Source of the DNA: Candidatus Berkelbacteria bacterium
GTDB taxonomy: Bacteria > Patescibacteriota > UBA1384 > 2-12-FULL-50-11
Assembly: GCA_016432625.1 (NCBI GenBank)
Contig: CP066697.1
Coordinates: forward strand, 671,951-735,950
Length of the DNA: 64,000 nt
Direction of reading: 5' to 3'
Shown here: positions 1,108 to 29,230 of the stretch, piece after piece
Position numbering within the stretch: position 1 is the stretch's first letter
Layout of the letters: every line of letters starts with the position of its first letter
Notes under the pieces: generated by a model
The model's database searches: none
What the model was told of the DNA's origin: nothing
The model's input: only the letters and a program-made list of their open reading frames with translations
Position numbers and translations under genes: made by a program

Positions 1108-4100
1108 TTACGGCACAATCTCGTAGACCACCGGGTCGCGGCCGAATTGCTTAACGACTTGATAGCCACGCTTAGCGCCGCCGTGATAACCAACTACCTT
1201 GTATGTGTCGGTGGAGGAAAGTGTCAAAGTCGAGTTGAACATGAAAACCAAATCTTCAGGGTCAGGAAGCCAGCTAAGATAGCGAGTAGCGTTTGACTTG
1301 CACTCGAAATCGTCATTACCTTCGCCTGTGTCGTTATAGTAATACTCGGAGCAATAGCTGTACCAGCGTCCACTAGCATCGTTTGAACCTCCTCGTCCTG
1401 CAGCAATAGCTGTGCCGATACCTGCTCCCGTCACAAGGATCGCCCCACCCTGGTTCGCGCCGGAGAAGGTGGTGAAGCCGGCAATCATCATAGTTTTATC
1501 TGAAGTGTAGTTCGTGGTTGTTTTCCCGTAAGGCGCGCCGGCACAACCGTTGCCGGTGTCGCATAAGTACGGATAGTAACCGTCCTGGTCCGAGCGGCCG
1601 TTAGTGGTTGAAGCGGAGTAAGACGAAGCGCCCATAATCATTCGAGCGTCAGCATTCTGATTACGAAATGCGCTACCCGGGTTAAGGACAGCTTTCGTAG
1701 AGCCCCAAGAATAACCACCATAAGTACCGTTAGTGTCGGAGATTCTTCCTAGCAGTCCGATGTGGCGCAGCAGCGGCGAGCTGTCATTGTCACCGGGCTG
1801 ACAGTCCTGACCGACATAGGAACACACCTTAGTGTTGCCGCTAGTGATACCCCCGGGAATCAGTTTGAAGGAGTTCTTAGTGTCGCCGACATCGCCAGTT
1901 TGGGTGAAATTATTGAATACTGTGTTAACCATCCCCGCGGCATCTACCGTTGAGTTGTCGGGCAGATAATACGCGTTATCCGGCTTGGAGAACGTCTCCC
2001 ACTGGGGCTCGCCGAGTAATCTGGGGCCGATATACTTACCGTAATCGCTAGTGGAGCCATCGAACTTCAGTTTGCCACCGAAATGCACTGCTTTGACAAG
2101 GTTATCCTTTTCGTACAGAACTAAACTGCCGCCAAACATATTCGGCAGATCCTTGCTACCGTCGGGTGAGGCCTTGCCGATAATCCAGCGTATGTCTTCG
2201 CTGCCGTTCATCTTGCCAGCGTGATCCATCTTCCAAAGGTCGGCGTAGCGGCCGTAGGTGCCTCCGACGGCGAAGATCTGACTCTTGGTACTGCCCTTGT
2301 TGTAGGTGCTACCGAAACCTCCTGCTTGGCGCGGGCTTGGCCGGTCGTTAACTTCCTGAGCGCCGTTATCGGTGTCAGAAATGCGGATCTGCCATAGAGG
2401 GTTATTATCTTTGGCGTTGGCATACCATTCAGGAGCCCCTTGGCCATAACTTGAGAGCTGATACTCAGCCAGGAAAAGGGCGAACGCGTCGTTACCGTTA
2501 TGTGATACAACAGCGTTACTACCGTAAGCAATTGGTGCCGGACTGGCGTACGGCTGATCGTCGGGATAGAGGCGAAATTCGTTGACACCCGCTTCGTAAG
2601 TTTTATTCTTAACCGTCATTGTATACGCCTCGATGCGATCGTTGTTACCAATAGTGCGCCAAAACATTACCGCCATTCCTGACGAGGGCAACTTGTTCAC
2701 CTCATCGCTCGACAGGTTGCGGAGCTTTAGGTAACCACCAGATGACCAGCGTATCTTGTCAGTACCCCCGTAGATCGCGTAGTCAGTCCGGTAGTAGCTG
2801 AATATCGACAGTTTGGCGTTTTTGCTATGCGTCTTGAGCCCGGAATCATTTGGATTACCTGGGTTATGCCTCAGGCGGATAATGGTGTTGTCGTAGCTGC
2901 CGGTAAAGGTGCTGACGATAATGCCATGAAATGTTTCGCGGACGTTTGGGTTAGGTCCGTCCGGACCGTTTTCACGCTCAATCGTCACATAGGCGCCAGT
3001 AACCAGGCGGCTCGGCGCGATGCTCTCACCACCGCTAGTCGCGATCGTTAGGTCCCAACACGATTGGTTCATGATACATGGCTGTGTATTGTTCCAACTC
3101 AAAGTTTGCGCTCCGGTCTTGGGATCGGTTGAGGCAACTTTGGCTATTTCGGGAGCGCTGGCGCCGTTCTGGGGCGTAAAGATTTGGGCTTCGAAACTGG
3201 GCTTAATAACCTTGAAGTTGTAGTCGTCGTTAGTTGAAGGCGCCGGGTTAGACATCGCTTTAGGCTTGGTTCCCCAAGCAACGCTAGCTTCGCCGCTCGC
3301 AACGCCGTTATTAAACTCCGCCTCCCACATCTCGTTGAAACGAATATTGGTGGCAATATTTTTGGAGTATCCCTGGAAGAGATAGTTAACTTGTTTGTTA
3401 GCCTGAGGGTCGCCAGGCTTAATGTTGATCGCAGCGCCGTAACGACCGACCGGAAAAGCCATCGCCGAATCGCCGGCAAACTTTGACGCCGCATCCGTAT
3501 TGTCGCGAAAGTCTTTCAGTTCGGCTCGGCGTTCATCAAAAGCAAAGTATAGCGTGCCATCTGTCTTTATATGGCTAATGTAGCCGCTTAACACCTGGTC
3601 AATCTTACCTGCCTGGTACTTCTCTAGAACCACTTGATCCCCAACCGCGTAACCGGTGCCATCTCCACTAAGATCACAGGTGTAATAACCACCTGCCGTG
3701 CTGCCAGTACAAGTATCAGCGGCGGCTTGTCGAGTTACAACTTGCATAAACAATTCTTGAAGAACGATCGATGCTGCCCCACGGATATTACCGTGCGCCA
3801 CAATAGTCACGGTGTCGTTGGGGTAATTGACGGCCGTCACCCTGGCCCAAGCGTTAAAGTAGGGTGCGCGGCTGAAAATGTATAGCTCGTCGCCAACCGC
3901 AAGCCCAGCAGCGCTGGGTGACATTTTGATAGTTGTAGCATCGGTGCCATTAACGTTTAGGTTGATTGGCACGGTCGCGTCCGCCCGCGGCTGCCATCTC
4001 CAGCGCTCCAGGCCGGAACGGTCCGCTAAAGTTGAAACAACGCGCACTTTATAACTATCGTTATTTTGGATTTTCTTTGTTGCGTCGAAGTTGTAGTTAA

Positions 4101-6201
4101 TCTTCTCCCAGGAATTGCCAGTTAGAGAATAGGCGTAGATGTCGTTTGTGACCCGTTTAGCAACACGCAAGCCAGCTTGGTTAGTGCCCAAACAATACGC
4201 CTGCGAGACCTCGCAATTAATCTGCCCGGGCGGATCGGTAACGGCAACACCTTCGTGATAATAACCGCCAAATAGGACCAGTCGCTTGTTCTGTTCGTCA
4301 TAAACTAACGACGAGCCAGCTTTCCGACCCGGTGGGGTTACCGTGCTTTGACTCGGGTAAATCCATTGGTCAGCCTCCGGATTATAGAGCCAGAGCTCGT
4401 CTGACTCAGAGTTGTAGCCGCCGTCGTAATCATTCATCGAAATTTCGCCGCCGTAATAAGCGATCATCGGCGTGACGCCGCCGTCAGTAGAGTAAGCTAC
4501 CGCTGCTTGGTGGCGAACAGGTTTCGGATAGATTCGAGCCCGGTCAATTGTGAAGCCGTTGATGCTGGTGCCGGCGAAGTTAACACTTTTAACTTGACCC
4601 CAGAAAGGCGTGGCCCCAGTTTTATTTAAGCTGACAACGTCGCCGACCGCCGGGCAAGCCGACAGCGTCGCGCTAATCGTGCAACTAGAGCTACCGTTCA
4701 GGGATAGGTCAATGCCGTCGTTACCGTTATCGTTTATAGTCAAGCCACTCATAGAAATTTTCGTCGAAAACTGGGCGTTATTTCCGGTTAGTACGATCGA
4801 GTCTAGATCCCCCCACGTGATGGCGGAACCGCCGATCTTATTGGGCGTATGATACGAATTCGGGCCGAGCTTGATCTTAACTGTTGTTGTATTGCCGGCA
4901 ACGCTAACTTCTGTCACCGATGCTTCGTAAAGTTTGCCTTGGTCGCTGGAGCGCTGTTCCAGCAGTAACGGCGTCTTCTGGCCACGTTGCAAGACGGTAA
5001 GTGATAGTTTTTTATTGAGACGAATGCCTTCCATCGAGCCGTAGAGAAGGCCTGTTATTGTCGCGCCTGGAGTGAGCTGAACGCCGTTCTGGCTATTGGC
5101 CAGCTTAACGAACGAGAACGGCCGGCTGCCTCGGACAATATCCACGTCCCAGTTATTACTGCCGCTTGAGCCAGTTAGGACCGGTCGATTCTTTTTTACC
5201 CAAGGCTTATTTGGCGTGTCGTTGATGTCGTCCGTCTTGTAGGCGCCCCCTAGGTCCTCTTCCGGCAAATCGTTCCATAACGACGGCTGAAGCCAGCTTA
5301 CTCGGTACTCATTGCTATCGGTGAATAGATCGCCCAAACCGTATTCTTGTAAAACGTTGTCCTTGACTGAGGCGTCTAGCCAAACCTTGAAGTTATTATT
5401 TCTGATCGTTGACTCAAACTGGGTTTTAATATCGTTGGCGCTGATCCGATCTACTCCAGTTGTGGAGCCGCCGCTTGTCACTAACGCCGTATCAACCCAG
5501 CGCGGCAGGTAGGGAATGTACAGGAAATCTAGCCCCTCGTAGTAAGAGCCAGAGCTGTCAGTATTTTTACGCGTCAGAAACTCATCTTCTGGGCCACCCA
5601 TTTTAATTGTCCAGTACCCCCTGTAGCTCTGCTGCTCTGTGGCCGGCGCGTACGGGTTATAGAAATGCCCCATCTTGGTTAGCTCGCTTATCGGCAAAAG
5701 CTTGTCACTTTCGGCACTGATTGAGCCGTTTTCAGGAATGGAGCCGAGCGGCGTATCGTTAATGATATTAGCGTAATAGAAAATCATCGCCGGGTTAGAC
5801 GGGTCGTCATCTTGGAACAAATACTTACCGCCGTTAGTCCACGGCGAGAGTACGGCTACCGATAAGCAGCGTGGTAGGGCGGTTGAGGCCTTCTCGTAGC
5901 TACTAACGATACTGCGCGGACTTGGTTTGTATTTCGTTAGATCAACCCCGGTACTTTCTTGGTTTTTGTCGAGATCGTAAATCGTCGGGTCAACCGCCGT
6001 CCCTAACTCAAGCTTCTCTTTGAGTTTGGCTAGTCCCGAGTCGGCGGCAAGTTTGGCAACGGCGGAGTTATTAATCTTGTCTGTCGAGCTTAATTGGTCG
6101 AAACGAATTGCCACAGCGCCAAGGGTGGTGGTTGTCAGGACAGCGATAACCATCACGGTTAAAAGCAAAATTGAGCCAGGTTTTAAGGTCGAGTTATTCA
6201 T
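1108..6201 (-). CDS. Giant (1697 aa) pilus-associated surface protein: PilX_N-like N-terminal hydrophobic segment plus Kelch-type beta-propeller repeats (candidate PilX/PilY1-like tip adhesin)
   Basis: Single uninterrupted ORF. N-terminus 'KPGSILLLTVMVIAVLTTTTLGAVAI' resembles the PilX_N domain but lacks the G|FxxxE prepilin cleavage motif. Kelch-like motifs include 'LVYDEQNKRLVLFGGYY' and 'GGTYGRYADLWKMD...SLVLYEKDNLVKAVHFGG'. The start overlaps the upstream pseudopilin stop (TAAgccATG). Confidence 0.6.
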   Translation of the reverse strand: MNNSTLKPGSILLLTVMVIAVLTTTTLGAVAIRFDQLSSTDKINNSAVAKLAADSGLAKLKEKLELGTAVDPTIYDLDKNQESTGVDLTKYKPSPRSIVSSYEKASTALPRCLSVAVLSPWTNGGKYLFQDDDPSNPAMIFYYANIINDTPLGSIPENGSISAESDKLLPISELTKMGHFYNPYAPATEQQSYRGYWTIKMGGPEDEFLTRKNTDSSGSYYEGLDFLYIPYLPRWVDTALVTSGGSTTGVDRISANDIKTQFESTIRNNNFKVWLDASVKDNVLQEYGLGDLFTDSNEYRVSWLQPSLWNDLPEEDLGGAYKTDDINDTPNKPWVKKNRPVLTGSSGSNNWDVDIVRGSRPFSFVKLANSQNGVQLTPGATITGLLYGSMEGIRLNKKLSLTVLQRGQKTPLLLEQRSSDQGKLYEASVTEVSVAGNTTTVKIKLGPNSYHTPNKIGGSAITWGDLDSIVLTGNNAQFSTKISMSGLTINDNGNDGIDLSLNGSSSCTISATLSACPAVGDVVSLNKTGATPFWGQVKSVNFAGTSINGFTIDRARIYPKPVRHQAAVAYSTDGGVTPMIAYYGGEISMNDYDGGYNSESDELWLYNPEADQWIYPSQSTVTPPGRKAGSSLVYDEQNKRLVLFGGYYHEGVAVTDPPGQINCEVSQAYCLGTNQAGLRVAKRVTNDIYAYSLTGNSWEKINYNFDATKKIQNNDSYKVRVVSTLADRSGLERWRWQPRADATVPINLNVNGTDATTIKMSPSAAGLAVGDELYIFSRAPYFNAWARVTAVNYPNDTVTIVAHGNIRGAASIVLQELFMQVVTRQAAADTCTGSTAGGYYTCDLSGDGTGYAVGDQVVLEKYQAGKIDQVLSGYISHIKTDGTLYFAFDERRAELKDFRDNTDAASKFAGDSAMAFPVGRYGAAINIKPGDPQANKQVNYLFQGYSKNIATNIRFNEMWEAEFNNGVASGEASVAWGTKPKAMSNPAPSTNDDYNFKVIKPSFEAQIFTPQNGASAPEIAKVASTDPKTGAQTLSWNNTQPCIMNQSCWDLTIATSGGESIAPSRLVTGAYVTIERENGPDGPNPNVRETFHGIIVSTFTGSYDNTIIRLRHNPGNPNDSGLKTHSKNAKLSIFSYYRTDYAIYGGTDKIRWSSGGYLKLRNLSSDEVNKLPSSGMAVMFWRTIGNNDRIEAYTMTVKNKTYEAGVNEFRLYPDDQPYASPAPIAYGSNAVVSHNGNDAFALFLAEYQLSSYGQGAPEWYANAKDNNPLWQIRISDTDNGAQEVNDRPSPRQAGGFGSTYNKGSTKSQIFAVGGTYGRYADLWKMDHAGKMNGSEDIRWIIGKASPDGSKDLPNMFGGSLVLYEKDNLVKAVHFGGKLKFDGSTSDYGKYIGPRLLGEPQWETFSKPDNAYYLPDNSTVDAAGMVNTVFNNFTQTGDVGDTKNSFKLIPGGITSGNTKVCSYVGQDCQPGDNDSSPLLRHIGLLGRISDTNGTYGGYSWGSTKAVLNPGSAFRNQNADARMIMGASSYSASTTNGRSDQDGYYPYLCDTGNGCAGAPYGKTTTNYTSDKTMMIAGFTTFSGANQGGAILVTGAGIGTAIAAGRGGSNDASGRWYSYCSEYYYNDTGEGNDDFECKSNATRYLSWLPDPEDLVFMFNSTLTLSSTDTYKVVGYHGGAKRGYQVVKQFGRDPVVYEIVP

Positions 6202-6204
6202 GGC

Positions 6205-7245
6205 TTAAGTTGGCCCAGGTGGCCCTGGCGGTGGCGCTTCCTCTCCGCCCTCTTCGCCGCCACCCTCTTCGCCTCCACCACCGCCGCCACCTCCACCGCC
6301 GCCAGCGGCGATCTCAAACGTTAAGTCTTGAACGTCAACCAACTGGGGATTGGTGCTATCGCGCAGAGTGACGGTGATACTTACGGTTCCTGCGACAGTA
6401 GGCGTACCCTGCAATACGTACTTATTGCCCTGCTGTGTAAGAGTGAGGTTGGGGAAAGATCCCAGGTTGCCAGTGTGACTCCAAGAGTAAGGCAGCTTAC
6501 CACCCTCGCCGATAATTTCTTTACTATACGGCTCATCGACAGTGCCGTTTGGCATCGCTGTGGTGGCGATATTAACCGGAATAATCCCCGTACCGATAAG
6601 GCCGATAGGCAGAGCGCTCGTGACTGTCGTCGACGAAGTTTTTGTCTCCTGAGCTCGTCCGCTTTGCTGCAAGGTTAATTCTAAGGTGAAGGAGTAGCGC
6701 AGCTGTTGCTTTGTGGCGCAGTTAGCTGACGGATCGCAATCATATGAGTTAAGTTGAGCTTGAAAATTAGTCACCTTCACCTGCTTACTCGAAAGGCGAT
6801 TTTGGTAAATCGGCATTGTTGCTAGGTCTGGGCATTGCAAGGCTGAATCGACCTTATAAACCCAGTAAGCGATAGTGTCGCCAGTAGTGTCAATGGTGTA
6901 TAGCTCTTGGTTACTAGCGTCAACCGCTGCTTTAGCGCGGCCAACGACTTCACAGGTATTGCGGTTCTGGGCCGTTGAAAAGGCCTCAATACGAACACCA
7001 GCAAAAGCATCGGGATTTGTGTAATAGCCTTGCAAATCGACGGCGCCTACAGGTGCATTTGAGGCAATCCGCCGCATGGTGTCCGTGACTGAACGAGCTG
7101 ATTCAGTAATTGAAGAGCGGGCATCGGTCCGAGAGACGAGGCTGTTTGTGCCGACTGTGGCAACTAGCGCCACAGTGACGGCGACCATAAAAAGCCCGAT
7201 GCTGACAACGATCTCGATTAACGTAAAACTTGGCTTAATTTTCAT
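6205..7245 (-). CDS. Prepilin-type (class III signal) pseudopilin with C-terminal Ig-like (He_PIG-type) domain and Gly/Glu/Pro-rich tail
   Basis: N-terminus 'MKIKPS|FTLIEIVVSIGLFMVAV' has E at +5. Internal 'LPNGTVDEPYSKEIIGEGGKLPYSWSHTGNLG...LQGTPTVAGTVSITVTLRDS' matches the putative-Ig-domain pattern. C-terminus is 'GGGGGGGGGGGEEGGGEEGGEEAPPPGPPGPT'. A GGAG RBS sits 7 nt upstream. Confidence 0.7.
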   Translation of the reverse strand: MKIKPSFTLIEIVVSIGLFMVAVTVALVATVGTNSLVSRTDARSSITESARSVTDTMRRIASNAPVGAVDLQGYYTNPDAFAGVRIEAFSTAQNRNTCEVVGRAKAAVDASNQELYTIDTTGDTIAYWVYKVDSALQCPDLATMPIYQNRLSSKQVKVTNFQAQLNSYDCDPSANCATKQQLRYSFTLELTLQQSGRAQETKTSSTTVTSALPIGLIGTGIIPVNIATTAMPNGTVDEPYSKEIIGEGGKLPYSWSHTGNLGSFPNLTLTQQGNKYVLQGTPTVAGTVSITVTLRDSTNPQLVDVQDLTFEIAAGGGGGGGGGGGEEGGGEEGGEEAPPPGPPGPT

Positions 7246-7248
7246 GGC

Positions 7249-7713
7249 TTACTCCAATAATTGGCTAGAGACAACGCTCCTGTTAGCGCCTTTACCCCAA
7301 GTCGTTTTAGCAACCACAAGATAGTTATTACCGGTATTAATCACATTAATTTCCGGCACAAATTGTAACCGACTACGACCTAGCTGCACGGGTTTAGGAT
7401 CGGCGTTCAAGGTGCAGTTTTGGGCTAAGTTATCTTGTGAACAGGCCACGTAGCAAGTCTCCCCAAGCACGCAGGAGCTTTCATACGTTTGCTTGAAGGT
7501 GTCGCCCAGGCTCTCGCGGAGAATTGTTACATACGATAGGCTCTGCTCGTTCAAGGCATACGCCGCGCCTTTAGTTTCGGCGGTAGTTACTAGACGGGAA
7601 GCGGCTGAGTTTAGCGACGACATCGCCACTCCAACCATAATCAAAAAGCTGACCGCGAAGACAACTTCAATCAGGCTGAAAGCCTTTTTACGCCTAGCTA
7701 GATCGTGGTGCAT
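7249..7713 (-). CDS. Prepilin-type N-terminal cleavage/methylation domain protein (pilin/pseudopilin, 154 aa)
   Basis: Leader 'MHHDLARRKKA|FSLIEVVFAVSFLIMVGVAM' has E at +5. A GAGGGG RBS sits 6 nt upstream. Its size is consistent with a major-pilin-like subunit. Confidence 0.75.
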   Translation of the reverse strand: MHHDLARRKKAFSLIEVVFAVSFLIMVGVAMSSLNSAASRLVTTAETKGAAYALNEQSLSYVTILRESLGDTFKQTYESSCVLGETCYVACSQDNLAQNCTLNADPKPVQLGRSRLQFVPEINVINTGNNYLVVAKTTWGKGANRSVVSSQLLE

Positions 7714-9083
7714 TCTTGCCCCTCAGTAGGTATCGCTAAGCGCCACCGTTGATAAATATTTCTAATTCCCCTCAGGTCAGCAACTCGACCAAAACGATTT
7801 CGGTTATAAGCCTGCTGTTGCGCACAGTTGTAGAGGATCACCCCTGGATCGGTCGGATCATCAAGATCAACGACATCGTCTTCGTCCTTGACGCTTCCTT
7901 GGCCACAGTCAATTGTGAAAGTCTTCTGTCGCTGACGTTCGACATCAAACGCTGCTTGATACGGGTCCTGAAGATTGCCGGCTTCATCCGAGGCGGCCAC
8001 ATTGACTACCACCTGGAACTGCTGATGCGACACCGATATCAAAGTCGTCTCGAAGGTGTACTGAACCCTTTCAAAGCCAGGACGGATATCGTAAAAGTAG
8101 CGGATCGCCAGCGGCCTAAACAGCGGCTGGCCGTTAGCCATCTCGCCGTTAACTTGCCAGCTTATGTCGTAGTAGACTGCTAGGTTCGGATCCGGGTCAT
8201 TTGGGTCAGTGACCCGATCCTCAGCCCGGGGGTAGCTTAGCGTGACGACGCTGGGGCCGCCGTTACCGCAACGCAAGTTCAATATGAAGTCAGCTTGATC
8301 GATGCCTACGTCACTCCACTTCGGCTTCAGACTGTCGGAAAACGCGGTAAAGAAGTCCTGAGGATTAACTTTGGCGACAGTTATCTCGCTGGTTTGCCGA
8401 TCGATAACGACGTAGCGTTTTTCGGTTAACTTTTGGGCACTAACAGTTATTACTAGGTAACGTGCTCGTGCCTCGCCAGCAGATTTGGACAATTTGCCTA
8501 TCCAGGAGGCGTTATTGAAGTCGGTCGAGTCGATATTGGGGTTTGAGGCGTTACCGCAGTTGAAGCCGATCTTGCCAACCGTGAAACGCACCACCGCCTT
8601 GACGTCACCTGCTGCGTAGTTGGCAGGGAAAAACGAGGAGATGTAAATATTACGCGGCAGTTTGAGTTCGCGAAGACGGGCGAAGCCGCTTTGAGTATCG
8701 CTAGGATCGCAGCGCGCCGCCCCACGCTCTAGGTAAAGCTGATTGGTGCTTGCTGACCCAGTGAAGGTGTAGTTAGCGGCTTGACCGGATTTAAAGTCCC
8801 CGATTGAAACTTGGTAAACTTGCCCGAGAGCCCCTGTATCCTTGCCCGTAGGCGCTAAGGATCTTGTCTTGGCATCGATTAAGAGCTGCCGGACTCGATT
8901 GGCGCTAGTGTCCAGACTCAGCCTGTCGTTACGGCCGAAGATATTCGGCAAGCTTGCCAGGCTAATCAGGGTGATTACGGCCAGTACAACTAAAAGCTCG
9001 ATAAGGCTGTAGCCTTTTTGCGGGGCTGGGGAGCGGCTGATGGGTTTACCAACTCTGGATATCATCGAGCTTGGCATCGACAT
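7698..9083 (-). CDS. Large prepilin-type pseudopilin (minor pilin, about 460 aa)
   Basis: Contains 'QKG|YSLIELLVVLAVITLISLASL' with E at +5. The ORF is open to 9146, but internal Met codons at 9083, 9077 and 9065 are the plausible starts. It overlaps the upstream pilin gene end, so the start is uncertain. Confidence 0.6.
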   Translation of the reverse strand: MSMPSSMISRVGKPISRSPAPQKGYSLIELLVVLAVITLISLASLPNIFGRNDRLSLDTSANRVRQLLIDAKTRSLAPTGKDTGALGQVYQVSIGDFKSGQAANYTFTGSASTNQLYLERGAARCDPSDTQSGFARLRELKLPRNIYISSFFPANYAAGDVKAVVRFTVGKIGFNCGNASNPNIDSTDFNNASWIGKLSKSAGEARARYLVITVSAQKLTEKRYVVIDRQTSEITVAKVNPQDFFTAFSDSLKPKWSDVGIDQADFILNLRCGNGGPSVVTLSYPRAEDRVTDPNDPDPNLAVYYDISWQVNGEMANGQPLFRPLAIRYFYDIRPGFERVQYTFETTLISVSHQQFQVVVNVAASDEAGNLQDPYQAAFDVERQRQKTFTIDCGQGSVKDEDDVVDLDDPTDPGVILYNCAQQQAYNRNRFGRVADLRGIRNIYQRWRLAIPTEGQECTTI

Positions 9084-10032
9084 TATCGCAAGTCGTAGTA
9101 TTCGCCCGCCAGGCATTACTGCTGTAAGTAATCGGCTCGTTGGCACTTAGTGATCGGTCGTCTCGCTTAATATCGCCGGCGACAGTCTTGCCGTTGCATT
9201 GATAGAGGTACTTGCCGTTCAGGATCTGCCGCAAGCCGCCAAAAGTTGTGAAGAAGAACTCATTTGCGGTTCCCCCAAAAACTGAGTCGGAGTCGGAGTC
9301 GTCATCAAGGTGGCGCACCGTACCGCCGCTACCTAAGTAATAGCGTTTCTCCGCTTGAGCAGAAGAGTTGAATAAGTACTTCGGCTCGGTGTCGTTGGTA
9401 TTCTCAAGCTTTGCGCCAACCAGTACGTCAACATAGTCGTAAGATACTCGGTATTGGTAACCGTTGAGGCTAGTTGAGCCATATGTTGGGTCGCTAACTA
9501 GCCGATCGACGTACTTTAAGCAGGTCAGGAAGTGGTTCACGGCCGTAAAGCCTGGCTTCAAGATGGCGTTGTCGTAATCGCTTGAAGCGGTGGTAAAATC
9601 CGTCGCGACAGAGAAGTTCGTTGGATTGCCGGCGCCGCTCAAGCCTTCACAGCCGGCGATATCTGTACCTAGATCTAGGCTGGAGGTTGCGGCACCGGTG
9701 TCAGTAGTATTCTTGCCCAAGTAAAAAGTATGGTTCGGATAAAGCTTAAAGTCGGTTTTAAATAGATCGAGTCCGGCTAAGTACAGATTGAGATCGCTCT
9801 TACGTCTAGCGTCACGAGACTTTAGCTGAATCGGGCGTATGGTTACGGTAACCAGGGTAATTAAGATGCCGATAATCGAGATGACAAGTAAAAGCTCGAT
9901 AAGGGTGAACCCGTTACGCGGTAAACTCGAAATCCGAAATCCGAAATTTGAGACAATACCTAATTTCGAAATTTGAAATTTAAAACGTTTAGAGTTTGTT
10001 TCGGCTTTCGTGCTTCGTGCTTCGTGCTTCAT
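9046..10032 (-). CDS. Prepilin-type pilin/pseudopilin (328 aa) with unusually long 40-aa leader built from heptanucleotide repeats
   Basis: Classic 'RNG|FTLIELLLVISIIGILITLV' motif. The only canonical in-frame start is ATG 10030-10032, only 7 nt after the pilC stop. The leader is encoded by tandem repeats (ttcgtgc x3, cgaaatc x3). Confidence 0.7.
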   Translation of the reverse strand: MKHEARSTKAETNSKRFKFQISKLGIVSNFGFRISSLPRNGFTLIELLLVISIIGILITLVTVTIRPIQLKSRDARRKSDLNLYLAGLDLFKTDFKLYPNHTFYLGKNTTDTGAATSSLDLGTDIAGCEGLSGAGNPTNFSVATDFTTASSDYDNAILKPGFTAVNHFLTCLKYVDRLVSDPTYGSTSLNGYQYRVSYDYVDVLVGAKLENTNDTEPKYLFNSSAQAEKRYYLGSGGTVRHLDDDSDSDSVFGGTANEFFFTTFGGLRQILNGKYLYQCNGKTVAGDIKRDDRSLSANEPITYSSNAWRANTTTCDNVDAKLDDIQSW

Positions 10033-10039
10033 AATTTAA

Positions 10040-11173
10040 TTAAAACTGCCCCGTTAGATTGTAGATTGGTTGCAGTACAGAGATCACAATGAAGCCCACA
10101 GCCCCTCCTAATAAGACAATAATAAACGGTTCGACGAGCGAAGAAAACGTCCTAAGCTTGGCGTCTACCTCGGTTTCAAAATACTCCGCCAAAGTGCTGG
10201 CTGAGCCGCCGAGGTCGCCGGACTGCTGCCCAACCAGTAAAAGCTGCGTCATGAGCTTTGGGAAGTAACGGCTTTTTTGCAAAGTCGACGAGATCGCCGC
10301 GCCTTGTTCAAGCGAGGTGCGTAGCTGTTTAAGCGAGCGTGTGAAGATCGTGTTCGTTGTTGAGTCGGCAATAATATCCACCGATTCAATAATCGGCACG
10401 CCGGCGCCGATCAGTAAAGCCAGCGTTCTGTTAAAGCGCGCTAAGTAAACTTCTCGGGTTAACCCGCCGAAAATCGGGAAGTTTAGCGCCAAATAGCTCA
10501 CTGTATCCTTGCCAGCACGTGTCAGCGTAAAAAGTTTAACTGCTACGACCAACCCGACGATAATGGCAATAAGGTAGTACCACTGGTTAATAAGAAAATC
10601 TGTAAACGCCAGCAACATTTGGGTCGAGATCGGCAAATCGGACCCGGTGGATTCGAAGATGTCTTTGATCGGCGGAATGACTCTGGTTAGGATGACGAAC
10701 CCTACGATAACCATAACCACCAAGATGAACGCTGGGTAAATCATGGCGCCGCGGACCCGGCTAATAAACTCGGCGGTTCGGGCCGTGGTCACCGAAAGTT
10801 CGTCGAGCACTTTGCTCAAATTACCGGTCGCCTCACCAGCACGGATAACGCCGATCTCCACCTCGGGGAAAGTTTTGGGGTGCCCGGACATTGCCACGGA
10901 TAGCGGGAAACCATTCTCCAAGCTTTTATAGACTTCGCGCATCACGGCTTTCAGCTTGCGGTTTGGTGTTTCGGCAGCGATATCAACCGCTTGGGTAATG
11001 CCGACGCCGGCTTTAAGCATCGTCGAAACTTCTCGGTACATAATCGACCGATCTTTAGCGTTTACCTTACCTATACTGAGGTGGGCCAAACCCTTTTTTT
11101 GTTCGACAACAGAAATGATCGTGTAACCGCGTTCTTCTAAAAGTTTGCGTACGGAAACAGCTTCGTACGCCAA
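10040..11173 (-). CDS. pilC: Type IV pilus assembly platform protein PilC / GspF family
   Basis: 377-aa ORF with a GspF-domain architecture of multiple TM helices and two cytoplasmic repeats. The listed start is TTG. The conserved N-terminal motif 'FRYKVKDGHGKIKSG' is encoded in-frame upstream of it without a canonical start. Confidence 0.75.
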   Translation of the reverse strand: MAYEAVSVRKLLEERGYTIISVVEQKKGLAHLSIGKVNAKDRSIMYREVSTMLKAGVGITQAVDIAAETPNRKLKAVMREVYKSLENGFPLSVAMSGHPKTFPEVEIGVIRAGEATGNLSKVLDELSVTTARTAEFISRVRGAMIYPAFILVVMVIVGFVILTRVIPPIKDIFESTGSDLPISTQMLLAFTDFLINQWYYLIAIIVGLVVAVKLFTLTRAGKDTVSYLALNFPIFGGLTREVYLARFNRTLALLIGAGVPIIESVDIIADSTTNTIFTRSLKQLRTSLEQGAAISSTLQKSRYFPKLMTQLLLVGQQSGDLGGSASTLAEYFETEVDAKLRTFSSLVEPFIIVLLGGAVGFIVISVLQPIYNLTGQF

Positions 11174-23342: not shown

Positions 23343-25034
23343 ATGTCGGCGAAGTTCGTCTTCGTTACCGGCGGAGTCCTCTCTGGGGTGGGTAAAGGAA
23401 TTGTCGCCGCCTCTCTTGCTAACACTCTGAAAAATCGCGGCTACGAAGTTTTCCTGCAAAAATTTGACCCGTATTTAAACGTTGACGCCGGCACTCTGAA
23501 CCCCGCTGAGCACGGCGAGTGTTTCGTGACCGCTGATGGCGCCGAAACAGATCTAGATTTGGGCCACTACGAGCGTTTTCTTGATGTGGAGCTAACGCGC
23601 GACTCCTCTGTGATGAGCGGCGCAATTTACCGCAGTGTTATCGAGAAGGAACGCCAGGGCAAGTACCTGGGCAAAACTATCCAGGTCATCCCGCACGTCA
23701 CTAACGAGATCAAAGAGCGGCTTTACAGAGCGGCCGAGCAATCCGAGGCCGATATCCTGGTCATAGAAATCGGTGGCACTGTCGGTGACATTGAAGGCAG
23801 CCACTTCATTGAAGTAGCGCGTCAAGTCGCGTGGGAGAGAGGACGCAATAATGTCTTGTTCGTCCATGTCGGCTACTTACCATATCTAGACTCTTCGCAG
23901 GAGACAAAAACCAAGCCGATTCAAAACTCGATTATAGATTTAAGAGCGCGCGGTATTCAGCCAGATATCGTTTTCTGTCGTGCTGATCACCCAATCGACA
24001 GGCAACAGTTAAAAAAGATCGCACTTTTTGGCGGACTGCCCGAGGAGGCGGTTGTCGGCCTCGAGACGATTGATACTGTTTACGCCGTGCCGCTAGTGAT
24101 CGCTGCGCAAAAAGTTGACCGTTTAGTCCTGAATTATTTGAAGCTAAAGATCCCTCGACAGCGCAGCAACGACTGGGAGGCGCTTGTACGTCGCATTCGT
24201 CGGCGGCGCAAAACAACGCTTAAAATCGGCCTGGTCGGCAAGTATATGTCGATGAGCGATACCTACTTCTCGGTAATTGAGGCACTGAAGGCGGCCGGCT
24301 GGCAGTCGACCCACGGACTTTCTGTTGTGTTGATAGATAGCGAGCGAGTCGAGCAAGTCGGAACAACGCTTTTGGCGGACCTAGACGGAATCTGCGTCCC
24401 TGGTGGCTTTGGCAAGCGAGGGATCAAGGGGATGCTACTCGCGATCCAATACGCTCGGGAAAACCAGATTCCTTTCTTGGGTCTGTGTTTGGGAATGCAA
24501 CTCGCAACAATTGAATACGCTCGCAACGTCCTAGGGCTCGAGGAAGCTAATTCGACCGAATTTGATGGCAACGCTCGCGAGCCAGTAATCACGACGATGT
24601 CAGATCAAGTTAAAAAACTGGCTCACCTTGAGTATGGCGGCTCGATGAGGCTCGGCAATTACCCCTGTCGCTTGGCTCAGGGGACCAAGGCTCGGGAGCT
24701 GTACGGTAAGGCCTCAATTCAGGAACGACACCGTCACCGCTACGAGTTTAACAACGCCTACCGACCAGTTCTTGAGGAGGGGGGAGAGTTTATTGTAGCA
24801 GGTGTGAATAATGCGCTGGATCTTGTCGAGCTCATAGAGCTGAAAGACCATCCTTATTTCCTGGCCTGTCAGTTTCACCCAGAATTCCGGAGCCGCCCGT
24901 TGCGCCCACACCCGCTTTTTGTCGGTTTTGTTGAGGCTGCGGGAAGGTTCCACAAAGATAACGAACCCACCCAAAGATTGCCGTTACACTATCGGCAAGT
25001 ACCCGGTCGCACGCGAAAACGAAGTCAGGGCTGA
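23343..25034 (+). CDS. pyrG: CTP synthase
   Basis: N-terminus 'KFVFVTGGVLSGVGKGIVAASL'. C-terminal glutamine amidotransferase 'GLCLGMQLATIEYARNVLG'. 563 aa. Confidence 0.95.
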   Translation: MSAKFVFVTGGVLSGVGKGIVAASLANTLKNRGYEVFLQKFDPYLNVDAGTLNPAEHGECFVTADGAETDLDLGHYERFLDVELTRDSSVMSGAIYRSVIEKERQGKYLGKTIQVIPHVTNEIKERLYRAAEQSEADILVIEIGGTVGDIEGSHFIEVARQVAWERGRNNVLFVHVGYLPYLDSSQETKTKPIQNSIIDLRARGIQPDIVFCRADHPIDRQQLKKIALFGGLPEEAVVGLETIDTVYAVPLVIAAQKVDRLVLNYLKLKIPRQRSNDWEALVRRIRRRRKTTLKIGLVGKYMSMSDTYFSVIEALKAAGWQSTHGLSVVLIDSERVEQVGTTLLADLDGICVPGGFGKRGIKGMLLAIQYARENQIPFLGLCLGMQLATIEYARNVLGLEEANSTEFDGNAREPVITTMSDQVKKLAHLEYGGSMRLGNYPCRLAQGTKARELYGKASIQERHRHRYEFNNAYRPVLEEGGEFIVAGVNNALDLVELIELKDHPYFLACQFHPEFRSRPLRPHPLFVGFVEAAGRFHKDNEPTQRLPLHYRQVPGRTRKRSQG

Positions 25035-26884
25035 GGGGGTGGCGGTTCAACAGGTGGCGGACTCTCAGGTTGTTTTGTACCAACCAGGAATTTCGCCGCC
25101 CAGGGTTTGTAAACCGACTTGAATGTTTGTTTATTAATCACCTGGCCGTTACGGGTCACAGTGTAAGCCACCACGGCTGTTGCCCCCTCATGAGCCTTTT
25201 CGGTCTGCTTCACTTCGCCGACCATCAGAGTATCCGTCTCGGTGCGGACTTCCGGTGGTGGTGGCAAGACGTTAGTAACGATCGGCGTCGTAAGGCTTGA
25301 AACACGTCCATCCTTGGTTCCCCAGAGTTCAAAGATAACTTTGCTGCCAATAACTTGGCCTTGAACTAAAAGATAGTTGCCGGTGTCGTTAAGGAATTTG
25401 AAATCGGGCTTTGGCAGGTAAATTGTCGCATCCAGTCCAACCGGCGGCTCGTAATAAGACACTCGATATGAGTGGTTTTGGCGCTCCGTAACTTTTAGGC
25501 CAGCGTTCAGAACGGCTCGAAACAGAGTTGTTGAGACTTGGCAGAGGCCTCCACCGAATTCTGGGGTAGTCTTGTTCTCTTTGATCACCAGTTCCGGCAA
25601 GAAGCCGGTCGTACCGTCAACCGCCCCGAGCGTCTTGACCGTCGAGAACTCGTCGCCTGGTTTGACTAGCGTACTCTGCAATAGCCGCACGCCGTTGGCG
25701 ATATTGGCTCGGCGGTTAGCTGGTGAGCCGGCAAAGCTAGTCTCGCCAAGTCCGACGATCTCCTTAATCCCTAGCGAATCGAGGTTATTCTCAGTAATTA
25801 GTGGCTTTTGAGCTTTGAAGGTCAAACTAGCCTCGGTCGCGGTCGGATCGTTTAGCACTGCCAGAACAGTTTTGGCACTTACGTCGATATCCACTACTCG
25901 TCCCTCCGAGGCGCCCTCAAGAATTACCAATTTACCTTCTTTTATGCCGAGTTTTGGATCCTTGGCTGGTTGGTCGATCGATTCAGCCGACAGCTCCTGA
26001 AGATAGGACCGCGTTTTATTGTCGGTGAAACTGGCGCGCAAGACCTTCTTGCCAGAAAGTGAGCCTGGCTGTTGAACGCCGGTAAAGTCAACGAGTCGGT
26101 TAACGTCTCCTTTGTTTAAATCCTTGCGGCCGCCTTCCCAAACTAAGGTTATTTTCTTTGTTGCCAAACTCTCAGCAGCGGTTTTGAGCGCAACTTCGTC
26201 GTCAATAACGATACTAGGCTCAGCCTTTTGGCGAACCAGCTCGATTGGCTCAGTGCTGCCACTCGACCAACGATCGAGAATTTGGCCAAGGAGAGTTTCT
26301 TGGTTAATCGTCTCGCCTGATTTGGCGTGAGTGATGACTAACTTATCCCCCTCGAACTCAGCGCTGGCGTTCACGGCTGGTTCGTCGATCGACTCAGCGA
26401 TGCCGGAAAGGGTGGTCTTTAGGTAAGTCTCGTCGTACTCGGCCTGAACATAATGGTGGCGGCTGTAGAACGGCGCCGTAACCTGCTCGAGTAGACTTTG
26501 AGTCCAATCGGCCTGTCGTCCGACCTTGAAAATTGTCTCGGCGGTGCCTTTAGTGTCGGCCGACCAGTTCGCCTCTTTAGCTGAAACCGAATAGGTTTTG
26601 CCGGCGTAATTAAGATTTAGGGGTTGCGAGAGGGAAGATGAGACGACGGTATTTAAACGCTCCTCAACTGCTGACAGTTTCAGGCCGCTGTACTGTTGCG
26701 TCCCGACGAATACGTTAGGGTAAACCCGTCCCAAGAATATTAGACTGTAAGCCAGATACAGCAACGCCAACAGCGCTACGACTACTAGGCTTGCTACCGC
26801 GCTTCGCTTGGCTTTAGACCCTGAACGAAGCAGCTTGTCGAGCCACCTCAAGGAGAAGGGAACGGTAGTTGTTGTCGTGCTCAT
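25025..26884 (-). CDS. VanW-family protein (YoaR-like) with N-terminal TM, G5-like segment and Pro-rich C-terminus
   Basis: VanW core 'EFGGGLCQVSTTLFRAVLNAGLKVTERQNHSYRVSYYEPPVGLDATIY'. Its 3' end overlaps convergent pyrG by 10 nt. Confidence 0.8.
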   Translation of the reverse strand: MSTTTTTVPFSLRWLDKLLRSGSKAKRSAVASLVVVALLALLYLAYSLIFLGRVYPNVFVGTQQYSGLKLSAVEERLNTVVSSSLSQPLNLNYAGKTYSVSAKEANWSADTKGTAETIFKVGRQADWTQSLLEQVTAPFYSRHHYVQAEYDETYLKTTLSGIAESIDEPAVNASAEFEGDKLVITHAKSGETINQETLLGQILDRWSSGSTEPIELVRQKAEPSIVIDDEVALKTAAESLATKKITLVWEGGRKDLNKGDVNRLVDFTGVQQPGSLSGKKVLRASFTDNKTRSYLQELSAESIDQPAKDPKLGIKEGKLVILEGASEGRVVDIDVSAKTVLAVLNDPTATEASLTFKAQKPLITENNLDSLGIKEIVGLGETSFAGSPANRRANIANGVRLLQSTLVKPGDEFSTVKTLGAVDGTTGFLPELVIKENKTTPEFGGGLCQVSTTLFRAVLNAGLKVTERQNHSYRVSYYEPPVGLDATIYLPKPDFKFLNDTGNYLLVQGQVIGSKVIFELWGTKDGRVSSLTTPIVTNVLPPPPEVRTETDTLMVGEVKQTEKAHEGATAVVAYTVTRNGQVINKQTFKSVYKPWAAKFLVGTKQPESPPPVEPPPPQP

Positions 26885-27229: not shown

Positions 27230-29230
27230 TCATCGGATTACTAGTGTGATGATCAAAATTGCCACAATGTTGGCAATTTTTATCATGGGATTTATAGCTG
27301 GGCCAGCAGTGTCTTTGTACGGATCGCCGACGGTGTCTCCAGTGACCGAGGCTTTATGGGCTTCAGAACCCTTGCCACCGTGATTACCTTCTTCGATGTA
27401 CTTCTTGGCGTTATCCCAAGCCGCGCCTCCGGTAGTCATCGACAGAGCCACAAACAGCCCTGTGACGATCGAGCCAATCAACAGACCACCTAGCGCCGCT
27501 GGACCTAAGAGCCAGCCGACAAGAATCGGCACGACTACTGGCAGGAGCGCCGGGACAATCATCTCTCGTAAGGCAGCACCAGTAACTATTGAGACGGCGC
27601 GGGCGTAGTCGGGCTTAATCTTGCCTTCGAGAATACCGCGACGCTCCTTGAACTGACGGCGTACTTCGCTCACGACGGCGCTAGCAGCGCGGCCGACGGC
27701 TTCCATCGACATCGCGGCAAAGAGATACGGCATCAGACCGCCGATAAAGAGTCCAGCGATGACGTACGGGTCGGATAGGCTGTAAGCGATATCGACACCC
27801 TTAGCGGCAATTTCTTGCGTGTAAGAGGCGAAGAGTACCAGGGCCGCCAAGCCGGCCGAAGCGATCGCGTAACCTTTCGTAACGGCTTTAGTAGTGTTGC
27901 CAACAGCGTCAAGCGCATCAGTGACAGTGCGGACTTCGCTCGGTAGTTCTGCCATTTCGGCAATCCCGCCAGCGTTATCAGTAATCGGGCCGAAGGCGTC
28001 AATGGCGACAATCAAACCCGTCAGGGAAAGCATCGAGAAAGCCGCTACGGCAACGCCGTAGAGACCAGCCAGCTCAAAAGCACCCAGCGCGCCTGCCGCA
28101 ATAACCAGCACTGGCCACATTGTCGAGCGCATTGAGAGCGCTAACCCGGAAATAATGTTGGTGGCGTGACCGGTTTCCGAGGCTTTGGCAATTGACCGAA
28201 CGGGTCGGTACTTAGTTGAGGTATAGTACTCGGTTATAAGCATCATCGCGGCCGTAACGCCGATACCGATAGCGGCGGCGCCGAAGAGCTTGGCAACGTT
28301 AAATTCATCGCTCATCAGCCAGCTCGTCAGTGGCCAGATGCCAGCGAGCGCTAAAACGATGGCGGCGATCAAGCCTTTGTACATCGCGCCCATGATGTTG
28401 CCACTCCTTGATAAGCGAACAAACCAGCTACCAATAATCGAAGCGACTATCGATAGGGCGCCTAAGGCTAGGGGGTAGAGGATAACGTTGTCATTACCTT
28501 CGAAGAGGATGCTGCCCAGCAACATCGCGCTCACCGCTGTAACGACGTAAGTTTCAAATAAATCAGCAGCCATGCCGGCGCAGTCTCCGACGTTATCACC
28601 GACGTTATCGGCAATTACCGCTGGGTTACGGGGGTCATCCTCCGGAATGCCGGCTTCAACTTTACCGACTAAATCCGCTCCGACATCGGCGGCTTTGGTA
28701 TAAATGCCGCCACCGAGCCTGGCGAAGATCGAGATTAATGAGCCACCGAAAGCCAAGCCAACGAGCGCCGAGACGTCTCGAGTCAGCCAATAGAAAACCG
28801 TTGTGCCAAGTAGCCCTAAGCCAACTACCATCAGCCCGGTAACTGCGCCACCGCGGAAAGCTAGATTCAGGGCAGGGACAAGGCCGGTTTTAGCTGCTTC
28901 AGCGGTCCGGATGTTGGCACGAACAGAGACGTTCATGCCGATATACCCCGACATCGCAGACAGCACGGCGCCGAGAACAAAGCCTCCGGCAATCGTCCAG
29001 TTGAGTAAGAAGCCAAGCAGTAAGAAGGCGAGCAAAGCCACGACGGCAACCGTTCGGTACTGGCGGTTCAGATATGCTTTGGCGCCCTGCTGGATGGCCG
29101 AGGCGATCTCTTGCATTCGCGCATCGCCGTTAGCCCGGCTATTGATCCAACGCCCTAATAGTAACGCGTAGATTACAGCCAACGCCCCCGCTCCAGTCGC
29201 CCCGTAAAGAATGTATTGCTCAGTAGTCAT
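27230..29230 (-). CDS. hppA: Membrane-bound proton/sodium-translocating pyrophosphatase (V-PPase)
   Basis: 666 aa. Motifs '[19 protein letters not shown]', '[21 protein letters not shown]' and '[19 protein letters not shown]'. An AAGGAGAGG RBS is present. Confidence 0.95.

What the first reader, a model, noticed from the sequence alone, without database searches (positions are those of the whole stretch)
6205..7245. Pseudopilin carrying an Ig-like (He_PIG-type) domain and a poly-Gly/Glu, Pro-rich C-terminal tail
Pilins rarely carry adhesin-type Ig domains. Here a prepilin N-terminus is followed by 'LPNGTVDEPYSKEIIGEGGKLPYSWSHTGNLG...GTPTVAGTVSITVTLRDS', which matches the putative-Ig-domain pattern. 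The C-terminus ends in G11-EE-GGG-EE-GG-EE-APPPGPPGPT, encoded by GGN repeats at 6205-6300. This homopolymeric coding tract could vary in length between strains. It may act as a flexible spacer or cell-wall tether.
Basis: seen in the sequence. Interest (0 to 1): 0.6.

Follow-up and report, generated by a model that had tools for sequence, protein, structure and literature searches.

The report
Pilus-tip pilin carrying an Ig-like module
This gene from an uncultured Berkelbacteria (Patescibacteria) genome encodes a minor type IV pilin with one Ig-like module and a floppy glycine-rich tail; this design has already been catalogued, so the finding is real but ordinary.

Summary
The ORF at 6205-7245 (-) is real. 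It has a prepilin-like N-terminus (MKIKPS|FTLIE), one Ig-like domain and the tail G11-EE-GGG-EE-GG-EE-APPPGPPGPT. The identical DNA occurs in Logan assemblies of two sequencing runs.

The gene sits in a six-gene operon, conserved in six related loci: pilC, a pilin, three pilin-like genes, then a 1697-aa Kelch-propeller protein.

The pilin module defines a small family of 36 clusters. The few members that can be placed are from Patescibacteria. Members carry 0-4 He_PIG modules, often followed by Gly/Pro-rich tails. The ten closest relatives all have two modules, so this protein has lost the second one. Its long poly-Gly run looks like the inter-module linker joined to the terminal tail.

Pilin-plus-PF05345 architectures with 1, 3 or 4 copies are already listed by Raynaud et al. 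2021. I found no evidence for tract-length variation, a cell-wall tether or an artefact.

The parts
7228..7245 (-). Leader peptide MKIKPS (aa 1-6) of a class III (prepilin-type) signal. The predicted cleavage is after Ser6.
   Evidence: Read from the sequence. Orthologs have G, A or S at position -1. Weak N_methyl match: 16.6 bits against a cut-off of 21.2.
7060..7227 (-). Mature N-terminus FTLIE (Phe +1, Glu +5) and the long alpha-1 helix (aa 7-62). This is the pilin assembly and membrane-anchor helix.
   Evidence: The AF2 model has a helix at residues 9-62. F7, T8, L9 and E11 are invariant in A4. This is the most conserved part, 77% mean pairwise identity.
6595..7059 (-). Globular beta-sheet head of the pilin module (aa 63-217). 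It has a GspJ/PilW-like fold and four conserved Cys (C98, C138, C170, C176), and it ends at the conserved LPIG motif.
6307..6579 (-). Single He_PIG / cadherin-like Ig beta-sandwich module (aa 223-313).
   Evidence: Block-mean pLDDT is mostly 80-95. He_PIG E 4-6e-4, 21 bits, below the gathering cut-off of 24. hhalign to the second module of orthologs: 99.1%. Fold matches to SraP 4m00/4m02/4m03 and BF4189 4ogz.
6208..6306 (-). Disordered low-complexity tail AG11-EE-GGG-EE-GG-EE-APPPGPPGPT (aa 314-346). The G11 run is at 6271-6303. I read it as the inter-module linker fused to the terminal Gly-rich tail after loss of the second module.
   Evidence: pLDDT 29-34. Codons. It is the only such run in the window. 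Orthologs have GGG-rich sequence after both modules.
6205..6207 (-). Stop codon TAA. The next gene starts 3 nt downstream (TAAGCCATG).
7249..7713 (-). Upstream 154-aa pilin-like gene (A|FSLIE). By its position it is the GspI/PilV-like minor pilin.
   Evidence: Weak XpsI and ComGE N-terminal matches. The position is conserved in L001, L002 and L006-L009.
7698..9065 (-). 455-aa pilin-like gene (G|YSLIE). By its position it is the GspH/FimU-like minor pilin. The longest ORF reaches 9146 (482 aa), which is probably too long.
   Evidence: N_methyl 26.3 bits and TIGR02532 above their cut-offs. It is called as 455 aa in L004.
9046..10032 (-). 328-aa pilin (G|FTLIELL). It is the candidate major pilin.
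   Evidence: N_methyl 29.3 bits; GspG N-terminal match 4.4e-8.
10040..11173 (-). PilC/GspF platform protein, the first gene of the operon.
   Evidence: T2SSF 2.6e-50. GspF and PilC matches 2e-81 and 3e-76, both below the NCBIfam cut-offs.
1108..6201 (-). Downstream 1697-aa protein. It has a pilin-like N-terminus without Glu5 (KPG|SILLLTVMV) and a Kelch-type beta-propeller at about aa 590-710. It is the candidate tip adhesin (GspK/PilX-like plus PilY1-like).
   Evidence: Kelch family matches, all but Kelch_1 below their cut-offs, best 4.6e-9. Orthologs of about 1640-1720 aa follow the target gene in all six related loci. The analogy is to Saccharibacteria PilX2.

Best explanation
The gene encodes a modular minor pilin of a Berkelbacteria (Patescibacteria/CPR) type IV filament. 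The evidence for each feature is in the For line.

**Shown**
- A prepilin-type N-terminus and a long alpha-1 helix.
- A head with the fold of the GspJ/XcpW/EpsJ minor pseudopilins.
- One He_PIG (cadherin-like Ig) module attached to the C-terminal end of the pilin module.
- A disordered Gly/Glu/Pro tail.
- A position as fifth gene of a conserved operon: pilC, pilin, H-like, I-like, this gene, then a giant propeller protein.
- Membership of a small family of pilins, from Patescibacteria wherever a source organism is named, that carry 0-4 He_PIG modules.
- The pilin-module tree places this one-module protein inside a clade of two-module proteins.

**Inferred**
- A prepilin peptidase cleaves after Ser6.
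- The protein joins the I-like and K-like neighbours in the priming complex, which ends up at the pilus tip.
- The Ig module projects from the tip, beside the 1697-aa propeller protein. There it either binds the host or substrate surface, or braces and extends the tip adhesin.
- The second module was lost by an in-frame deletion. The short GGG linker after module 1 was thereby joined to the Gly-rich tail that follows the last module, giving the unusually long G11 run.
- The tail itself is a weakly constrained terminal linker: an acidic, flexible 'bristle', not a sorting or anchoring signal.
For: **Fold and domains**
- AF2 model: pLDDT 73, helix 9-62, beta head, Ig sandwich 224-313 at high confidence, tail at pLDDT about 30.
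- He_PIG is found in 12 of 13 homologs and in 10 of 11 orthologous first modules.
- Module 1 and module 2 profiles are homologous, 99.1%.

**Operon**
- The operon content is shown.
- The same gene order is found in L001, L002 and L006-L009.

**Family**
- 36 clusters among 1.84 billion representatives, carrying 0, 1, 2, 3 or 4 modules with recurrent Gly/Pro tails.
- The four GTDB loci and the one named cluster member are all from Patescibacteria/Berkelbacteria.
- In an NJ tree of the pilin module, the window protein nests inside the two-module clade, sister to P0002.
- Orthologs have GGN tracts both after module 1 and after module 2.
- Conservation falls outward: helix 77%, head 67%, module 1 60%, module 2 52%.

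**Reproducibility and literature**
- Identical DNA in the Logan assemblies of two runs.
- Modular pilins are proposed to be tip-exposed adhesins, and PF05345 architectures are catalogued (PMC8179133).
- A propeller-bearing minor pilin, PilX2, contributes to host binding in Saccharibacteria (PMC11623550).
Against: - This sequence reaches the curated cut-off of none of the HMMs tested: N_methyl 16.6 vs 21.2, He_PIG 21 vs 24, GspJ 15 vs 295.
- The GspJ assignment rests on a medium-confidence model and on gene order. There is no sequence-level match to any solved pilin head.
- Ser at -1 is a non-canonical prepilin cleavage residue.
- No prepilin peptidase, assembly ATPase or PilM/N/O gene was found among the ORFs checked in the window.
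- Tip location, binding role and the deletion mechanism are inference. No ligand is indicated.
- The NJ tree has no support values.
- All sources of the sequence are metagenome assemblies, and the two runs have neighbouring accession numbers.
Confidence: 0.72

Rival explanations
1. The protein has the same structure but belongs to a different machine. The operon would encode a competence-type (Com-like) DNA-uptake pilus, and this protein would be its ComGF/GspJ-like minor pilin. The Ig module would then not be for host adhesion.
For: The gene order (platform protein, major pilin, then four pilin-like genes) mirrors comGB-GC-GD-GE-GF-GG. There are weak ComGE/ComGF/ComGD N-terminal matches for the operon's pilins. 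That CPR bacteria depend on scavenged nucleotides is my own background knowledge, not tested here.
Against: All the Com matches are N-terminal only and far below their cut-offs. The last gene is a 1697-aa Kelch-propeller protein, unlike the small ComGG. Comparable propeller and lectin-bearing minor pilins in Saccharibacteria act in host binding. No comEA or comEC lies next to the operon.
Confidence: 0.18
2. The short protein and its poly-Gly tail are an assembly or sequencing artefact. The second Ig module would have been collapsed between two GGN-rich tracts, or a frameshift would have occurred in a GC-rich tract.
For: All sources are metagenome assemblies. The two runs have neighbouring accession numbers, so they may come from one study. 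The tract contains two near-identical 15-nt units. This is the only member of its clade with one module.
Against: The sequence is 100% identical over 7 kb and 2.8 kb in the assemblies of two different runs and in the NCBI MAG. The reading frame runs cleanly to a TAA that sits 3 nt before the conserved start of the next gene, so there is no room for module remnants. Gly-rich tails are a family trait. Other family members also have one module (P0018, P0019).
Confidence: 0.05
3. The tail is a functional element in its own right. It would be a hypervariable contingency tract changing length between strains, or a C-terminal sorting or cell-wall tether signal.
For: Tail length differs widely among orthologs, from 4 to 33 aa or more. 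GGN repeats are slippage-prone in principle.
Against: The codons are mixed and the repeats imperfect. Length changes in triplets would not switch expression. No length variant was seen in the assemblies that carry the gene, nor in a JGI metagenome scan allowing +/-15 nt. The tail has no LPXTG, GlyGly-CTERM or PEP-CTERM type motif, no hydrophobic segment and no conserved terminal residue. A pilin held by its N-terminal helix in a fibre cannot plausibly also be tethered to the wall by its C-terminus.
Confidence: 0.05

Closest known systems
Modular type IV pilins (Raynaud et al. 2021, PNAS, PMC8179133), specifically the IPR012902-PF05345 architectures in their Dataset S1
   Same: An N-terminal pilin module has one or more He_PIG modules attached at its C-terminus. 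The published list has copy numbers of 1, 3 and 4 (14, 9 and 11 proteins). Many of the representative modular pilins in that paper come from CPR phyla.
   Different: This protein's own N_methyl and He_PIG scores fall below the curated cut-offs, so a domain-database census would probably miss it. No PF05345-bearing pilin has a tested function. The characterised examples carry other modules: vWA in PilB and a lectin in PilC of S. sanguinis.
GspJ / XcpW / EpsJ minor pseudopilins of type II secretion, and PilW of type IVa pili
   Different: There is no significant sequence similarity: the GspJ HMM gives 15 bits against a cut-off of 295. It has an extra C-terminal Ig module and tail. From my own knowledge, CPR bacteria have no outer membrane and no T2SS secretin.
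SraP cadherin-like (CDHL) modules of Staphylococcus aureus (PDB 4m00-4m03), and He_PIG domains in general
   Same: They are the best sequence-profile and fold matches for the Ig module.
   Different: In SraP the CDHL modules form a stalk that presents a lectin module (my own recollection of the SraP structure paper). Here the module is terminal and nothing lies distal to it.
Saccharibacteria (TM7x) T4P minor pilins PilW1/PilW2 and PilX2 (PMC11623550)
   Same: This is a CPR type IV pilus operon with pseudopilin-like minor pilins. It includes a large minor pilin with a non-canonical signal peptide and a beta-propeller, which is needed for efficient host binding.
   Different: It is a different phylum-level lineage. 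The TM7x PilW proteins are described as elongated by loops, not as carrying He_PIG modules. Homology between the two was not tested here.

Membership tests
Type IV pilin / class III signal peptide (PF07963 N_methyl, TIGR02532) | Short basic leader ending in Gly (less often Ala or Ser), then Phe/Met at +1, Glu at +5 and about 20 hydrophobic residues | tested here: met
   MKIKPS|FTLIEIVVSIGLFMVAVTVALVA. Position -1 is G, A or S in orthologs. F7, T8, L9 and E11 are invariant. Helix at 9-62 in the model.
Type IV pilin / class III signal peptide (PF07963 N_methyl, TIGR02532) | HMM score at or above the curated cut-off | tested here: not met
   N_methyl 16.6 bits against 21.2. TIGR02532 is not reported for this protein. 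12 of 13 family members match N_methyl at E<=0.01, best 2e-5.
Type IV pilin / class III signal peptide (PF07963 N_methyl, TIGR02532) | Processing by a prepilin peptidase encoded in the genome | not testable with these tools
   No peptidase A24 gene was found among the ORFs checked in the window. The rest of the genome was not available.
GspJ / PilW class of minor pilins | GspJ-type fold of the globular head | tested here: met
GspJ / PilW class of minor pilins | Sequence-model membership (NCBIfam GspJ PRK08808) | tested here: not met
   15 bits against a cut-off of 295, N-terminal 60 residues only. No PDB sequence hit for the head.
GspJ / PilW class of minor pilins | Operon position between an I-like pilin and a Glu5-less K/X-like pilin | tested here: met
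   Gene order in the window and in six related loci. The downstream protein begins KPG|SILLL, without Glu5.
GspJ / PilW class of minor pilins | Forms a heterotrimeric tip or priming complex with the I-like and K-like subunits | not testable with these tools
   No multimer prediction was available.
He_PIG putative Ig domain (PF05345) | HMM score at or above the gathering cut-off (24 bits) | tested here: not met
   20.6-21.1 bits, E 4-6e-4, for the isolated domain. No hit in the full-length scan.
He_PIG putative Ig domain (PF05345) | Homology to domains that do match the family | tested here: met
   Orthologous first modules match in 10 of 11 cases, best 1.1e-8. hhalign of the module 1 profile against the module 2 profile: 99.1%, E 1.8e-18.
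He_PIG putative Ig domain (PF05345) | Ig-like / cadherin-like beta-sandwich fold | tested here: met
   Strands at 224-313 with block-mean pLDDT mostly 80-95. SraP CDHL, BF4189 and cadherins are the top matches.
Modular pilins (sensu Raynaud et al. 2021) | Pilin module plus a non-pilin module joined by a short linker | tested here: met
   The pilin module ends at LPIG(L), as shown by relatives that stop there. A 5-residue connector follows, then the Ig module.
C-terminal sorting or anchoring signals (LPXTG sortase, GlyGly-CTERM, PEP-CTERM) | Signature motif followed by a hydrophobic helix and a basic tail at the C-terminus | tested here: not met
   The tail contains only G, E, A, P and T, with no hydrophobic segment. 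Ortholog C-termini are not conserved.

The most novel reading that the evidence does not exclude
The Gly-rich (GGN-coded) linkers that follow each He_PIG module may act as recombination hot-spots. These would let Berkelbacteria add or drop Ig modules on a pilus-tip subunit quickly (0-4 copies in this small family), tuning tip reach or host specificity. On this reading the window gene is a fresh product of such an event, and the acidic poly-Gly/Pro tail has a role of its own at the tip.
Probability: 0.12. Interest if true: 0.5.

Novelty: new member of a known kind. Interest (0 to 1): 0.22.

Why it matters
Type IV pili are thought to be the main way ultrasmall CPR/Patescibacteria attach to their hosts, and the tip subunits are the likely determinants of specificity. 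This gene adds one more modular tip-pilin candidate. It also gives a small, clean example of module loss within a family whose members carry 0-4 Ig modules.

It does not reveal a new kind of system, because pilins with He_PIG modules are already catalogued. The practical value is for annotation. The protein is 'hypothetical' in NCBI and would be missed by domain censuses, since its own scores fall just below the cut-offs.

Tried and rejected
- **Full-length Pfam scan:** no He_PIG hit. The hit appears only when the domain is scanned alone. I did not test why.
- **Sequence searches of the pilin head, the 154-aa neighbour and the 1697-aa neighbour against the PDB:** nothing useful. Only N-terminal helix matches to pilins, at E 0.005-0.09.
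- **Foldseek against afdb50:** library not installed.
- **The search for related loci with the divergent pilin-module alignment A4:** Repeated with A1, which gave 4 loci.
- **Homolog search with the first 450 aa of the 1697-aa neighbour:** only two fragments.
- **JGI metagenome scan for tract-length variants:** 0 hits. The pattern is valid, since it finds the window copy. The test therefore had no data rather than a negative result.
- **Collagen-like (G-X-Y) reading of the tail:** rejected. At most two or three triplets are in register, and orthologs are not periodic.
- **Sortase reading of 'LPIGL':** rejected. It is not LPXTG, and it marks the end of the pilin module in relatives that stop there.
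- **Plus-strand ORFs over the region (6171-6371, 6328-6678, and the poly-Pro run at 6272-6304):** these are mirror images of the coding strand.

Full report
**1. The observation**

- The ORF at 6205..7245 on the minus strand encodes 346 aa.
- It is identical to an NCBI entry from a Candidatus Berkelbacteria metagenome-assembled genome, annotated only as hypothetical.
- The N-terminus reads MKIKPS|FTLIEIVVSIGLFMVAV. The quoted Ig-like stretch is present.
- The C-terminus is AAG11-EE-GGG-EE-GG-EE-APPPGPPGPT, followed by TAA at 6205-6207. The G11 run lies at 6271-6303.
- The codons are a mixture of GGC, GGT and GGA. Tandem Repeats Finder sees only imperfect units of 9-15 nt in about two copies. 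The tract is therefore low-complexity but not homopolymeric.
- It is the only Gly run of five or more in any frame of the window.
- Logan assemblies of two runs (SRR12113407, SRR12113397) carry the gene and its flanks with 100% DNA identity.

**2. What the protein is**

*HMM scores.* No curated HMM cut-off is reached by this sequence on its own.
- N_methyl: 16.6 bits against 21.2.
- He_PIG: no hit in the full-length scan, and 20.6-21.1 bits against 24 for the isolated domain.
- GspJ: 15 bits against 295.

*Homologs.* The context settles it.
- A search of 5.8 billion proteins gave 12 homologs at 39-71% identity. All are longer (408-535 aa) and all carry PF05345.
- In the alignment, the close relatives run: pilin module, He_PIG module 1, a short GGG linker, He_PIG module 2, then a Gly-rich tail.
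- Module 1 of the orthologs matches He_PIG in 10 of 11 cases, best E 1.1e-8.
- The module 1 profile aligns with the module 2 profile at 99.1% probability, E 1.8e-18.

*Structure.* An AlphaFold2 model built on that alignment has mean pLDDT 73. It shows:
- a helix at 9-62;
- a beta-sheet head at 69-214;
- a beta-sandwich at 224-313, with block-mean pLDDT mostly 80-95;
- a tail at pLDDT about 30.

Foldseek agrees for the sandwich.

**3. Surroundings**

The gene is the fifth of six tightly packed minus-strand genes:

| Position | Coordinates | Product |
|---|---|---|
| 1 | 10040-11173 | PilC/GspF platform protein |
| 2 | 9046-10032 | 328-aa pilin |
| 3 | 7698-9065 | 455-aa pilin-like protein |
| 4 | 7249-7713 | 154-aa pilin-like protein |
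| 5 | 6205-7245 | the target |
| 6 | 1108-6201 | 1697-aa protein |

- The 1697-aa protein begins KPG|SILLLTVMV. That is a pilin-like helix without Glu5. It also contains a Kelch-type propeller.
- The same six-gene order recurs in two metagenome contigs and in four GTDB genomes, all labelled Patescibacteria or Berkelbacteria.
- The order H-like, I-like, J-like, then a Glu5-less K-like protein is that of gspH-I-J-K and fimU-pilV-pilW-pilX. Together with the fold match, it places the target in the GspJ/PilW slot.
- The other large ORFs I scanned encode housekeeping and polysaccharide-synthesis genes. No further pilus machinery turned up among them.

**4. The family and the tail**

- An exhaustive HMMER search with the pilin module alone found only 36 clusters (at 50% identity) among 1.84 billion representatives.
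- I counted He_PIG modules with a profile built from the two module alignments. Members carry 0, 1, 2, 3 or 4 modules.
- About a dozen members have no module and stop 1-4 residues after the conserved LPIG motif. This marks the module boundary.
- After the last module many members have a Gly- and often Pro-rich tail of 4-33 residues. Examples are GGSGGAGGNGGGNGGGL, SSGGGPPIGGGSNPF and IIVPPPPPPPPPGGEGEPGGGAGVGGLE. Composition is conserved but sequence is not.
- In the closest clade, both module 1 and module 2 are followed by xGGG, encoded by GGN tracts.
- An NJ tree of the pilin module puts the window protein inside a clade of ten two-module proteins, sister to P0002. The tree has no support values.
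- The single-module state is therefore most simply a loss. G11 is about the size expected from a G4-5 linker joined to a G6 tail start, as in P0010.
- Conservation falls from the helix (77%) through the head (67%) and module 1 (60%) to module 2 (52%). This is what one expects if distal parts are more exposed and more dispensable.

**5. How it most likely works**

*Shown:* the architecture, the fold class, the operon and the module loss.

*Inferred from established knowledge of type IV filaments:*
- A prepilin peptidase cleaves after Ser6.
- The protein assembles through its alpha-1 helix with the I-like and K-like neighbours into the priming complex, which stays at the pilus tip.
- The He_PIG module, attached to the C-terminal end of the head, projects next to the giant propeller protein.
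- Nothing lies distal to the module, so a pure 'spacer' role is unlikely. It either contributes a binding surface or braces the tip adhesin.
- The tail is best read as a terminal linker under weak constraint.

**6. Rivals**

- **Com-type DNA-uptake pilus.** The gene order resembles comGB-GG and weak ComG matches exist. The 1697-aa propeller protein argues for adhesion, as does the Saccharibacteria precedent, where the propeller-bearing PilX2 contributes to host binding.
- **Assembly artefact.** This is unlikely given identical independent assemblies and a clean frame ending 3 nt before the next conserved start. All data are metagenome assemblies, and the two runs have neighbouring accession numbers.
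- **Phase-variable tract or cell-wall tether.** There is no support for either: the codons are mixed, no variants were seen, and there is no anchor motif.

**7. Comparison with what is known**

- Raynaud et al. 2021 (PMC8179133) defined modular pilins and surveyed InterPro.
- PF05345 is among the extra domains in the 15 most frequent architectures.
- Their Dataset S1 lists pilin-PF05345 with one copy (14 proteins), three copies (9) and four copies (11).
- The architecture and its variable copy number are therefore already on record, although no He_PIG pilin has been studied experimentally.

**8. Verdict**

This is a real feature, correctly seen and partly correctly interpreted. It is a new member of a known kind: a GspJ/PilW-class modular minor pilin of a Berkelbacteria type IV pilus. 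It is shortened by loss of its second Ig module, and it carries a family-typical disordered Gly-rich tail. Interest is low to modest.

Noticed in passing
window 1108-6201 (-): A 1697-aa protein lies directly downstream. It has a pilin-like N-terminus lacking Glu5 (KPG|SILLLTVMV) and a Kelch-type beta-propeller at about aa 590-710. It looks like a fused GspK/PilX-like pilin plus PilY1-like tip adhesin, comparable to Saccharibacteria PilX2. Orthologs of about 1640-1720 aa follow the target gene in six related loci.
   Followed up: partly
window 6201-6207 and 7245-7251: Both gene junctions around the target read TAAGCCATGAA: a stop, 3 nt, then a start. This suggests translational coupling of the minor-pilin genes.
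   Followed up: no
window 7698-9146 (-): The longest ORF (482 aa, GTG start) overlaps the upstream pilin gene by about 100 nt. It would give a 44-residue leader before G|YSLIE. Logan calls the gene as 455 aa (start at 9065), which is more plausible.
   Followed up: partly
window 9046-10032 (-); L006 3561-4562: The candidate major pilin (328 aa) has an unusually long 41-residue leader before G|FTLIELL, with no internal Met. Its ortholog in L006 carries a duplicated prepilin N-terminus (RRAFTLIELL ... KNGFTLIELL).
   Followed up: no
P0007, P0009, P0011 (orthologs; alignment A1): In three orthologs the Gly-rich tail contains a Cys pair (GGGNCGGNRVCVGG, GGGCSGRMCEVGG, GGACVGSACQIEEE). This suggests a small disulfide loop that the window protein lacks.
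   Followed up: no
window 30919-63925: There is a large surface-polysaccharide cluster. It holds several GT4/GT2 glycosyltransferases, two Wzy-like proteins, two Wzx/MurJ-like flippases, two asparagine-synthase paralogs, a DegT aminotransferase and a UDP-glucose dehydrogenase. A 460-aa protein with a fibronectin type III domain sits at 62543-63925.
   Followed up: partly
window 25025-26884 (-) and 27230-29230 (-): A VanW / PG_binding_4 / G5 cell-wall protein and a membrane H+-pyrophosphatase (PF03030, E 2e-269) lie here. Both are unrelated to the pilus operon.
   Followed up: no
window 6272-6304 (+): A poly-Pro run (P11) in a 40-codon plus-strand frame is simply the reverse complement of the poly-Gly tract. 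It is not a gene.
   Followed up: yes
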